DNA of 4,402 bases from a virus (lineage: Duplodnaviria; Heunggongvirae; Uroviricota; Caudoviricetes): IMG/VR virus record IMGVR_UViG_2663762839_000010. One strand, written 5' to 3'. Under the pieces are notes generated by a model. The model saw only the letters and a program-made list of their open reading frames with translations, ran no database searches and was not told the origin of the DNA. Shown here piece after piece: positions 3,446 through 3,874 of this stretch (positions are counted from its first letter, which is position 1; each line of letters starts with the position of its first letter). The translations under genes were made by a program, and so were the position numbers.

Positions 3446-3496
3446 CCAAACATGCTGCCGCCGCCATGGAAATGCAAAAACTAGCCTTTTTCCGCG

Positions 3497-3508
3497 ACGC
3501 TCCCGCCC
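3497..3508 (-). other. Putative cosN (12-nt cohesive-end site), lambda-like
   Basis: Minus-strand sequence CACG GGGCGGGAGCGT CGCGG compared with lambda TTACG GGGCGGCGACCT CGCGG (recalled): the 9 nt ACGGGGCGG on one flank and CGCGG on the other are identical, and the interior differs. Distance to the small-terminase start (about 185 bp) matches lambda, where Nu1 ATG is near position 191. Confidence 0.5.
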
Positions 3509-3874
3509 CGTGGCAGGGACCCCCACTGGGAGGACCCGACAGCCTGACAACCGTGACGAGCATCTGAAACAGAGCTTTACATAATGGCATGGGGATAATT
3601 CAGAAGGACATCACAGCATGCCCACACAAATTAGTGTGAGTGTCCTGTTTCTTACTACGCGCAGGACTGACGAGCATGAGGGGAAAATACGCGAACCGAA
3701 ATGCCTTATCTTCAGAAATGCAGCCGGCATCCGAACTGGGCGATATTGTAAATTCACCTAAATACGAGGCATTGCTGTAGTTGAATTGCAGTACTGTATT
3801 AGCCTTACAGTGACAGAATACGATATTGACTCTGTCACTTGTGAAATGGTCAGAATGGTTAGCAGTTATGGTGA

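What the first reader, a model, noticed from the sequence alone, without database searches (positions are those of the whole stretch)
3480..3520. Apparently intact lambda-like cosN with a variant cohesive-end sequence
The minus strand reads CACG-GGGCGGGAGCGT-CGCGG. The flanks that lambda terminase recognises around the nick sites (ACGGGGCGG and CGCGG) are conserved relative to lambda GGGCGGCGACCT, while the interior of the 12-nt overhang differs (GGGCGGGAGCGT). The site sits about 185 bp upstream of the Nu1-like start, matching lambda geometry. If genuine, this remnant keeps a functional packaging signal although its own large terminase is disrupted.
Basis: partly seen in the sequence, partly recalled or inferred. 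Interest (0 to 1): 0.55.

Follow-up and report, generated by a model that had tools for sequence, protein, structure and literature searches.

The report
Known lambdoid cos site in prophage remnant
This is a real, apparently undamaged DNA-packaging (cos) site of a common family of E. coli lambda-like phages, left behind in a small dead prophage fragment; its "variant" sticky-end sequence is already the deposited genome end of known phages, so it is ordinary.

Summary
The minus strand at 3508-3497 reads GGGCGGGAGCGT, flanked by CCACG and CGCGG. It is part of a full lambda-type cos.

- A GGGTCCT heptamer (lambda's cosQ) lies 22 nt upstream; the spacing is 23 nt in lambda.
- A perfect IHF consensus lies at +64..+76.
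- A small terminase gene starts at +197, followed by a gpA-family large terminase gene.

The GenBank records of phage cdtI and of the plaque-forming phage Tritos begin exactly at this 12-mer and end in ...CCACG. The core 121 bp is 100% identical to phage HannyBb.

The 12-mer differs from lambda only at positions 7, 8, 9 and 11. This is the right half, which published work describes as naturally variable and mutation-tolerant. The exact site occurs in at least 120 IMG/VR contigs, and homologues occur in about 23% of complete E. coli genomes.

The remnant claim also holds. terL carries two amber codons, and phage homology stops at 485 and 4316.

Corrections: the small subunit is Pfam DUF1441, only a remote Nu1 relative. 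The terminase concerned is 24% identical to lambda gpA. Activity was not tested, and I found no experimental determination of the ends. Two substitutions private to this window lie in distal cosB.

Verdict: genuine but already known; low interest.

The parts
3531..3537 (-). cosQ-like heptamer GGGTCCT, 22 nt upstream of the first base of the cohesive end
   Evidence: It is the only occurrence in the window. The same heptamer lies 23 nt upstream of the end in lambda and 22 nt upstream in cdtI, Tritos, HannyBb, phi458, PhiR40_1 and mEp213. That GGGTCCT is lambda's cosQ is from my own knowledge (Wieczorek and Feiss 2001). That cosQ is a conserved 7-bp site is stated in PMC4669245.
3492..3513 (-). 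cosN, the 22-bp nicking site CCACG|GGGCGGGAGCGT|CGCGG, with partial two-fold symmetry (12 of 22 positions; 10 of 22 in lambda)
   Evidence: The CG dinucleotides flanking both nick positions are conserved, as described for lambda-like phages (PMC4669245).
3497..3508 (-). Predicted 12-nt 5' cohesive end GGGCGGGAGCGT. The inferred nicks are between 3509/3508 on the minus strand and between 3496/3497 on the plus strand.
   Evidence: The cdtI (AB285204) and Tritos (OV696610) records begin at this 12-mer and end in ...CTGCCACG. The nick positions are inferred by homology, not measured.
3469..3496 (-). I2-like tract between cosN and cosB (phage +13..+40): CGCGGAAAAAGGCTAGTTTTTGCATTTC
   Evidence: +13..+33 is conserved across all cosB types that share this cosN, and it aligns with lambda CGCGGGTTTTCGCTATTTATG. 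The role of I2 in termination is from PMC4669245.
3451..3468 (-). Type-specific segment CATGGCGGCGGCAGCATG (+41..+58), at roughly the position of lambda R3 (bp 50-65). It is the best candidate for the cosN-proximal TerS binding site.
   Evidence: This segment differs between the Tritos, mEp460, PhiR40 and mEp213 types, while its flanks are conserved. It is nearly invariant within the Tritos type. The assignment is an inference.
3433..3445 (+). IHF consensus TATCAATAAATTA (I1-like), at phage +64..+76
   Evidence: It is the single perfect match to WATCAANNNNTTR in the window; 43 of 200 shuffles gave at least one match. A TTGAT/TTGTT core sits at the same place in most members of the group. It is invariant in 25 haplotypes.
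3406..3415 (-). Direct repeat copy 1, TTTCCACCTG (+94..+103). It reads TTTTCACCTG in relatives and carries a substitution private to this window at 3412.
   Evidence: This copy also varies among natural haplotypes, so its role as an R site is uncertain.
3329..3338 (-). Direct repeat copy 2, TTTTCACCTG (+171..+180), 17 bp upstream of the terS start (an R1-like position)
   Evidence: It is invariant in 25 haplotypes.
2785..3312 (-). terS, intact small terminase subunit (175 aa)
   Evidence: PF07278 DUF1441, E = 3.9e-44. phrog_141 'terminase small subunit', E = 1.8e-64, and phrog_57 (lambda Nu1's family), E = 1.7e-9. 99.4% identical to TerS of Tritos, cdtI and HannyBb.
677..2776 (-). terL pseudogene: gpA-family large terminase, in frame over 699 codons but with amber codons at 1001-1003 (W592*) and 887-889 (E630*)
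   Evidence: Pfam GpA_ATPase and GpA_nuclease. The two substitutions relative to the intact prophage of E. coli SC480 are, and the translation is.
485..680 (-). Homologue of lambda W (head-tail adaptor), cut near its 3' end by the deletion junction at 484/485
   Evidence: Homology with the intact prophage starts at 485. Positions 1-492 match a prophage tail-fibre gene.

Best explanation
Positions 3329-3537 (minus strand) are the cos site of a Tritos/cdtI-type lambdoid prophage.

Layout, in packaging order:
- cosQ (GGGTCCT)
- a 22-nt spacer
- cosN (CCACG|GGGCGGGAGCGT|CGCGG)
- an I2-like A/T tract
- a type-specific TerS-binding segment
- an IHF site
- a distal cosB with two TTTYCACCTG repeats
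- terS, then terL

Inferred mechanism, by analogy with lambda. The DUF1441-type TerS, a remote homologue of Nu1, binds cosB with IHF bending the DNA. This positions the gpA-family TerL to make two nicks 12 bp apart in cosN. The result is 5' overhangs GGGCGGGAGCGT, and DNA is packaged toward terS, that is toward lower window coordinates. cosQ + cosN + I2 would serve for termination.

In this window the site is an orphan. The resident terL is inactivated by two amber codons, and all head, tail, lysis and regulatory genes are deleted. The site could therefore act only in trans, with terminase from a co-resident or superinfecting phage of matching specificity.

The sequence layout and the homology are shown. 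The nick positions, protein binding and activity are inferred.
For: - The sequence is as described and is unique in the window.
- The cdtI and Tritos records start at the 12-mer and end in CCACG. Tritos makes virions and plaques (PMC9928086).
- 121/121 identity to phage HannyBb over 3440-3560. Identical to the intact SC480 prophage from cosQ to +96.
- cosQ, the CG flanks, the I2-like tract and the IHF site lie at lambda-like positions and are conserved across the whole DUF1441-terS group. The alignment to lambda cos has z = 5.3.
- Differences from lambda are confined to positions 7, 8, 9 and 11. Published work says bp 7-12 vary naturally and tolerate mutation, and Gifsy-1 differs at 8, 9 and 11 (PMC4669245).
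- In Cr-LKS3, whose TerS is 38% identical to the window's TerS, the paper reports 5'-extended cohesive ends whose first 4 bp and flanking dinucleotides match lambda's (PMC9303873). That record starts about 135 nt upstream of the TerS match.
- TerS and Nu1 give reciprocal, near full-length PHROG cross-hits.
- Within 25 haplotypes of this cos type, cosQ to cosB is conserved, while sequence upstream of cosQ is mosaic.
Against: - I found no experimental determination of the ends for any phage with this exact cosN. The cdtI paper and Vahanian et al. 2017 were not readable, so the record boundaries may have been set by analogy with lambda.
- The 12-mer is not quoted as a phage cohesive end in any open-access text searched.
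- The virion-derived mEp460_4F5 record opens 5 nt upstream of the predicted nick and lacks 3 nt next to cosN. It therefore does not confirm the exact ends.
- R sites could not be assigned with confidence. Repeat copy 1 varies naturally, and this window has two private substitutions in cosB (+97 and +157).
- BLAST gives no significant alignment to lambda, N15, phi80, 21 or HK97 cos.
Confidence: 0.85

Rival explanations
1. The site is homologous to a cos but is no longer competent for packaging initiation in this remnant. Its two private substitutions in cosB (T>C at +97 in repeat copy 1, A>T at +157) would have weakened TerS binding or bending, as part of the same decay that produced the amber codons in terL.
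For: Both substitutions are absent from SC480, HannyBb, Tritos, cdtI and all 25 IMG/VR haplotypes of this type. One of them hits a 10-bp repeat that is exact in relatives. Two of the 9 differences from SC480 are nonsense codons in terL, which shows relaxed selection.
Against: cosQ, cosN, the I2-like tract, the R3-position segment and the IHF site are unchanged. Repeat copy 1 is the most variable part of cosB among natural prophages (TTTTCAGCTG in about 10 contigs, TTTTTACCTG in about 4), so it seems tolerant of change. In lambda, termination needs only cosQ, cosN and I2 (PMC4669245).
Confidence: 0.12
2. The site is a cos, but the real ends are not the 12-nt 5' overhang GGGCGGGAGCGT. The nicks would be offset, or the overhang would have a different length, and the GenBank start points would have been chosen by analogy with lambda.
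For: - Related phages have other lengths or sequences: Cr-LKS3 has 9 nt.
- VT1-Sakai reads one base shorter at this site, and Gifsy-2 has a different, longer sequence between the same flanks.
- The mEp460_4F5 assembly is irregular at this spot.
Against: The CG dinucleotides at both predicted nick positions, and the left half GGGCGG, are identical to lambda's. Published work reports these as the conserved, functionally critical positions. Two independent depositors chose the same start. The 12-bp spacing between the two CG flanks is the same as in lambda.
Confidence: 0.08
3. The match is a chance resemblance in GC-rich intergenic DNA, or part of a small protein-coding gene (ORF 3435-3590, 51 aa), and not a packaging site.
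For: An ORF of 51 aa spans the site. HannyBb annotates hypothetical proteins there.
Against: 0.02 matches are expected by chance. Three independent motifs lie in the correct order and spacing. The site is identical to phage genome termini. The ORF has no Pfam match.
Confidence: 0.01

Closest known systems
cos of phage cdtI (AB285204 / NC_009514) and of phage Tritos (OV696610, prophage 3 of E. coli LF82); also HannyBb (PP925841)
   Same: Identical cosQ heptamer, 22-nt spacing, CCACG flank, 12-mer GGGCGGGAGCGT, +13..+33, R3-position segment (1 difference in cdtI) and IHF site. TerS is 99.4% identical.
   Different: The window has two private substitutions in distal cosB (+97, +157) and a few differences in the cosQ-cosN spacer compared with Tritos and cdtI. 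Here the site sits in a remnant of about 3.8 kb, not in a complete phage.
Bacteriophage lambda cos (cosQ-cosN-I2-R3-I1-R2-R1)
   Same: Same order of subsites. GGGTCCT, the ACG/CG flanks, GGGCGG and CGCGG are identical. terS starts at about +190 to +197. There is an IHF site between the proximal and distal parts of cosB.
   Different: The overhang differs at positions 7, 8, 9 and 11. The cosQ spacing is 22 nt, not 23. cosB has no sequence similarity to lambda's R sites, and no inverted R2 was recognised. TerL is 24% identical. TerS belongs to a different Pfam family.
[quoted passage not shown]
   Same: Variation is confined to the right half of the overhang, with the left half and the CG flanks conserved (PMC4669245; PMC12315714).
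   Different: This variant also changes position 7. From the published description, it would be one base away from Gifsy-1's overhang. I did not see the Gifsy-1 sequence itself.
cos of mEp460-type (phi458) and PhiR40-type phages
   Same: Exactly the same cosQ, cosN and +13..+33.
   Different: cosB differs from about +34 on, and TerS is only about 41% identical. This parallels lambda and phage 21, which share cosQ and cosN but differ in cosB specificity (PMC4669245).
PICI cos sites (cos-rppA islands such as EcCICFT073)
   Same: They are orphan lambda-like cosQ-cosN in a non-autonomous chromosomal element that depends on helper terminase (PMC9026076).
   Different: In PICIs the cos is followed by rppA, with no recognisable cosB. 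Here the site is followed by a full phage cosB, an intact terS and a terL pseudogene, so it is a decayed prophage and not an island.

Membership tests
[quoted passage not shown] | A 12-bp cohesive-end sequence similar to lambda's, with a conserved left half | tested here: met
   8 of 12 positions are identical, and positions 1-6 are identical.
[quoted passage not shown] | Conserved CG dinucleotides flanking both nick positions | tested here: met
   The site reads CCACG|...|CGCGG. Conservation of these flanks is described in PMC4669245.
[quoted passage not shown] | Conserved 7-bp cosQ upstream of cosN | tested here: met
   GGGTCCT lies at 3531-3537, 22 nt from the end; the spacing is 23 nt in lambda.
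[quoted passage not shown] | [quoted passage not shown] | tested here: inconclusive
   The IHF consensus is present and conserved. There is a type-specific segment at the R3 position and two direct TTTYCACCTG repeats. No clear triplet of related R sequences, and no inverted R2, was found.
[quoted passage not shown] | terS and a gpA-family terL immediately downstream | tested here: met
   terS starts at +197. Pfam finds GpA_ATPase and GpA_nuclease in terL.
[quoted passage not shown] | Virion DNA physically ends here with 12-nt 5' overhangs | not testable with these tools
   The evidence is only indirect: the cdtI and Tritos records start and end here. No end-mapping data were found.
Phage_Nu1 small terminase family (Pfam PF07471) | Match to the Pfam Phage_Nu1 model | tested here: not met
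   Only PF07278 DUF1441 matches, even at E <= 10. BLASTP against Nu1 gives E = 4.6. Remote homology is supported by reciprocal PHROG hits: the window TerS hits phrog_57 at 1.7e-9, and Nu1 hits phrog_141 at 5.6e-8.
PICI-type cos (cos-rpp island) | cos followed by an rpp gene, without phage cosB or terminase genes | tested here: not met
   terS and terL follow the site. The region is collinear with an intact prophage.
HK97-type cos | Sequence similarity to the HK97/HK022 cos region | tested here: not met
   HK97 and HK022 are not among the 35 phage records matched by blastn at E <= 0.01. I did not align them directly.

The most novel reading that the evidence does not exclude
The orphan cos and the intact terS may be retained because they are useful, not because they are inert debris. 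Terminase from a Tritos/cdtI-type helper would cut this site in situ and package the adjacent chromosome toward lower window coordinates. Alternatively the site would terminate packaging runs begun at another cos. Either way the remnant would act as a cos-driven hotspot for lateral or specialised transduction, or as a satellite-like hitch-hiker.
Probability: 0.07. Interest if true: 0.5.

Novelty: already known. Interest (0 to 1): 0.15.

Why it matters
It matters little beyond correct annotation. The site marks the genome ends and the packaging direction of a very common family of E. coli lambdoid prophages: homologues occur in about 23% of complete genomes. It also shows the known modular design of cos, with one cosQ-cosN unit combined with several cosB/terS specificities.

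A cos surviving in a dead remnant is in principle a substrate for helper-phage terminase. That could mobilise neighbouring host DNA, but this has not been tested.

Tried and rejected
- **Literature search for the 12-mer.** I searched for the 12-mer, its complement and related variants. The only relevant hit was the LLS/mEp213 overhang.
- **Papers not held.** Asakura 2007 (cdtI), Vahanian 2017 and Wieczorek and Feiss 2001 could not be read. I could not establish whether the cdtI ends were measured.
- **LF82 and infant-gut phage papers.** Neither gives cos or terminus mapping.
- **IMG/VR scan for contigs ending at the site.** All 120 returned matches were internal, mostly in prophage-derived contigs, so there is no terminus pile-up.
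- **TerS against PDB sequences.** Nothing significant was found.
- **Repeat search for lambda-style R3/R2/R1.** It found only one 10-bp direct repeat pair, and no convincing triplet.
- **Gifsy records.** The Gifsy-1 and Gifsy-2 records are in prophage order. Gifsy-2 lacks the GGGCGG motif. I did not locate the Gifsy-1 cos.
- **Source genome.** It was not identified. Neither junction occurs in 5,426 complete E. coli genomes or in the GTDB species representatives.
- **Engineered junction.** I considered whether the GGTACCCGGG at the 485 junction marks a cloning polylinker. I rejected this, because both natural parental sequences contain GGTACCCG.

Full report
**1. Observation**

The minus strand of the window reads ...GGGTCCTCCCAGTGGGGGTCCCTGCCACG GGGCGGGAGCGT CGCGGAAAAAGGCTAG... 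The 12-mer lies at 3508-3497. The pattern ACGGGGCGGN6CGCGG occurs once in the window, where 0.02 matches are expected by chance even with two mismatches allowed.

**2. Genes around the site**

- Downstream on the minus strand lies a 175-aa ORF (3312-2785). It matches Pfam DUF1441 (PF07278, E = 3.9e-44) and PHROG 141, 'terminase small subunit'.
- Next comes a 699-codon reading frame (2776-677) with the GpA_ATPase and GpA_nuclease domains of lambda-type large terminases.
- The region 485-4316 is 99.8% identical to an intact prophage of E. coli SC480. That prophage continues with portal, protease-capsid fusion and tail genes on one side, and with gnsB, cspI, lysis and Q genes on the other.
- Only 9 positions differ from SC480. 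Two of them create amber codons in terL: TGG>TAG at 1001-1003 and GAG>TAG at 887-889.
- Phage homology stops at 484/485. There the W-like gene is joined to a tail-fibre fragment.
- Phage homology also stops at 4316/4317, where the sequence continues inside the core gene ycjX.

**3. Is it a cos?**

Several independent lines say yes.

(a) *Record termini.* The GenBank records of phage cdtI and phage Tritos both begin at GGGCGGGAGCGT and end in ...CTGCCACG. Tritos is a spontaneously induced, plaque-forming siphovirus of E. coli LF82 (PMC9928086).

(b) *Identity to complete phages.* The 121 bp at 3440-3560 are 100% identical to phage HannyBb. From cosQ to +96 the window is identical to the intact SC480 prophage.

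(c) *The other lambda subsites lie at lambda-like positions.*
- GGGTCCT lies 22 nt upstream of the end, against 23 nt in lambda. This heptamer is lambda's cosQ by my own knowledge of Wieczorek and Feiss 2001.
- CG dinucleotides flank both predicted nicks.
- An A/T-rich tract after cosN aligns with lambda's I2 region.
- The only perfect IHF consensus in the window (TATCAATAAATTA, 3433-3445) lies at +64..+76.
- terS starts at +197, against 191 in lambda.
- A 75-bp stretch aligns with lambda cos at 49 identical positions, z = 5.3 against shuffles.

(d) *The same layout recurs in related phages.* It is found upstream of the homologous terS in phi458 (mEp460-like), PhiR40_1, mEp213/LLS, Fels-1, PSTCR8lys and VT1-Sakai.

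(e) *Cohesive ends reported for a related phage.* For Cr-LKS3, whose TerS is 38% identical, the paper reports 5'-extended cohesive ends with lambda-like first bases and flanks. That record starts about 135 nt upstream of the TerS match.

**4. The 'variant'**

The overhang differs from lambda's GGGCGGCGACCT at positions 7, 8, 9 and 11. Feiss and co-workers state three relevant things (PMC4669245):
- Differences in bp 7-12 are common among lambda-like phages. Gifsy-1 differs at 8, 9 and 11, and N15 at 9 and 12.
- Mutations in the right half have little phenotype.
- The left half, the flanking CG pairs and cosQ are conserved.

LLS and mEp213 carry yet another right-half variant (annotated). The window's site fits this known pattern exactly.

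It is also common. In addition, 1,254 of 5,426 complete E. coli genomes have a homologue covering at least 80% of the 161-bp core.

**5. cosB and specificity**

Among the 120 contigs, the same cosQ-cosN unit is joined to at least three different downstream sequences: the Tritos, mEp460 and PhiR40 types. Their TerS proteins are only about 41% identical. Lambda and phage 21 likewise share cosQ and cosN but differ in cosB.

- The types are alike at +13..+33 and at the IHF site. They diverge at +41..+58, which roughly matches the position of lambda R3 (bp 50-65). I take CATGGCGGCGGCAGCATG (3468-3451) as the best candidate for the proximal TerS site. This is an inference.
- Further downstream are two direct repeats TTTYCACCTG, at +94 and +171.
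- Copy 2 is invariant in 25 haplotypes. Copy 1 varies naturally.
- The window's only private changes in cos are +97 (inside copy 1) and +157.
- I could not define a lambda-style R3/R2/R1 set.
- Within the Tritos type, sequence becomes mosaic immediately upstream of cosQ. This marks the edge of the conserved unit.

**6. The proteins**

- TerS gives no significant BLASTP match to Nu1 (E = 4.6) and no Pfam Phage_Nu1 match.
- It does hit Nu1's PHROG family at E = 1.7e-9, and Nu1 hits its family at 5.6e-8. Both alignments are nearly full length.
- 'Nu1-like' therefore holds only as remote homology.
- cdtI TerL is 24% identical to lambda gpA (E = 4e-22).
- The conserved cosQ and left half of cosN are thus retained across very divergent terminases. 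The literature already implies this by including Gifsy-1 among the lambda-like phages.

**7. Mechanism**

Shown here:
- the layout of the subsites;
- their homology to the cos of complete phages;
- the intact terS;
- the broken terL;
- the loss of all structural genes.

Inferred from lambda biology (PMC4669245 and PMC9026076):
- TerS and IHF bind cosB and position TerL to nick cosN 12 bp apart.
- Packaging runs toward terS, that is toward lower window coordinates.
- cosQ + cosN + I2 suffice for termination, whatever the cosB type.

In this remnant the site can act only with terminase supplied in trans. In lambda-type packaging, producing a particle would also need a second cos downstream.

**8. 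What remains open**

- I found no measured ends for any phage with this exact overhang. The key papers were not available, and the 12-mer is not quoted as a phage end in open-access text.
- The virion-derived record mEp460_4F5 opens 5 nt upstream of the predicted nick and lacks 3 nt beside cosN. This points to the neighbourhood but not to the exact position.
- BLAST alone does not align the region to lambda, N15, phi80, 21 or HK97.

**9. Verdict**

This is a genuine and apparently intact cos of a known, widespread lambdoid lineage. It is not new: the same site forms the ends of phage records deposited since 2007, and its pattern of variation has been described. Interest is low.

Noticed in passing
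window 887-889 and 1001-1003 (minus strand, terL): terL is in frame over its full 699 codons, apart from two amber codons 38 codons apart (W592*, E630*). These are 2 of only 9 differences from an intact prophage across 3.8 kb.
   Followed up: partly
window 484/485 and 4316/4317: Both edges of the phage remnant are novel junctions. At 485-492 the two parental homologies (the W-like gene and the stf tail-fibre gene) overlap by 8 bp, GGTACCCG. At 4316/4317 phage DNA abuts the inside of the core gene ycjX with no overlap. Neither junction occurs in 5,426 complete E. coli genomes or in the GTDB species representatives, so the source strain was not identified.
   Followed up: partly
window 3469-3537 compared with loci L012, L013 and L018-L137: One identical cosQ-cosN-(+13..+33) unit is combined with at least three different cosB/terS types in E. 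coli prophages. Sequence mosaicism starts immediately upstream of cosQ.
   Followed up: partly
L015 (VT1-Sakai) about 465-495; L009 (Gifsy-2) about 490-520: VT1-Sakai and the Stx2a phages read CACG GGGCGGGCGGGC GCGG, one base shorter than the window's site. Gifsy-2 has CCACG GGTGGCTTCGGGCT CGCGGG, a different and longer sequence between the same flanks. Either could mean overhangs of another length, or defective sites.
   Followed up: no
L138 1-30 and L139 end (mEp460_4F5, LR595868): This virion-derived assembly is opened 5 nt upstream of the predicted nick. It lacks TCG at the cosN right flank (GGGCGGGAGCG-CGG). This may be an assembly artefact at the cohesive ends.
   Followed up: no
window 3875-4081 (minus strand): A 68-aa ORF matches phrog_657 (unknown function) and is annotated as YbcW in phage Tritos. 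It is the only other intact phage gene in the remnant besides terS.
   Followed up: no
window 3538-3560 (minus strand); L004 1510-1535 (Tritos): Just upstream of cosQ there are short tandem copies of CTGTCAGG: about two imperfect copies in the window and three in Tritos. Their role is unknown.
   Followed up: no
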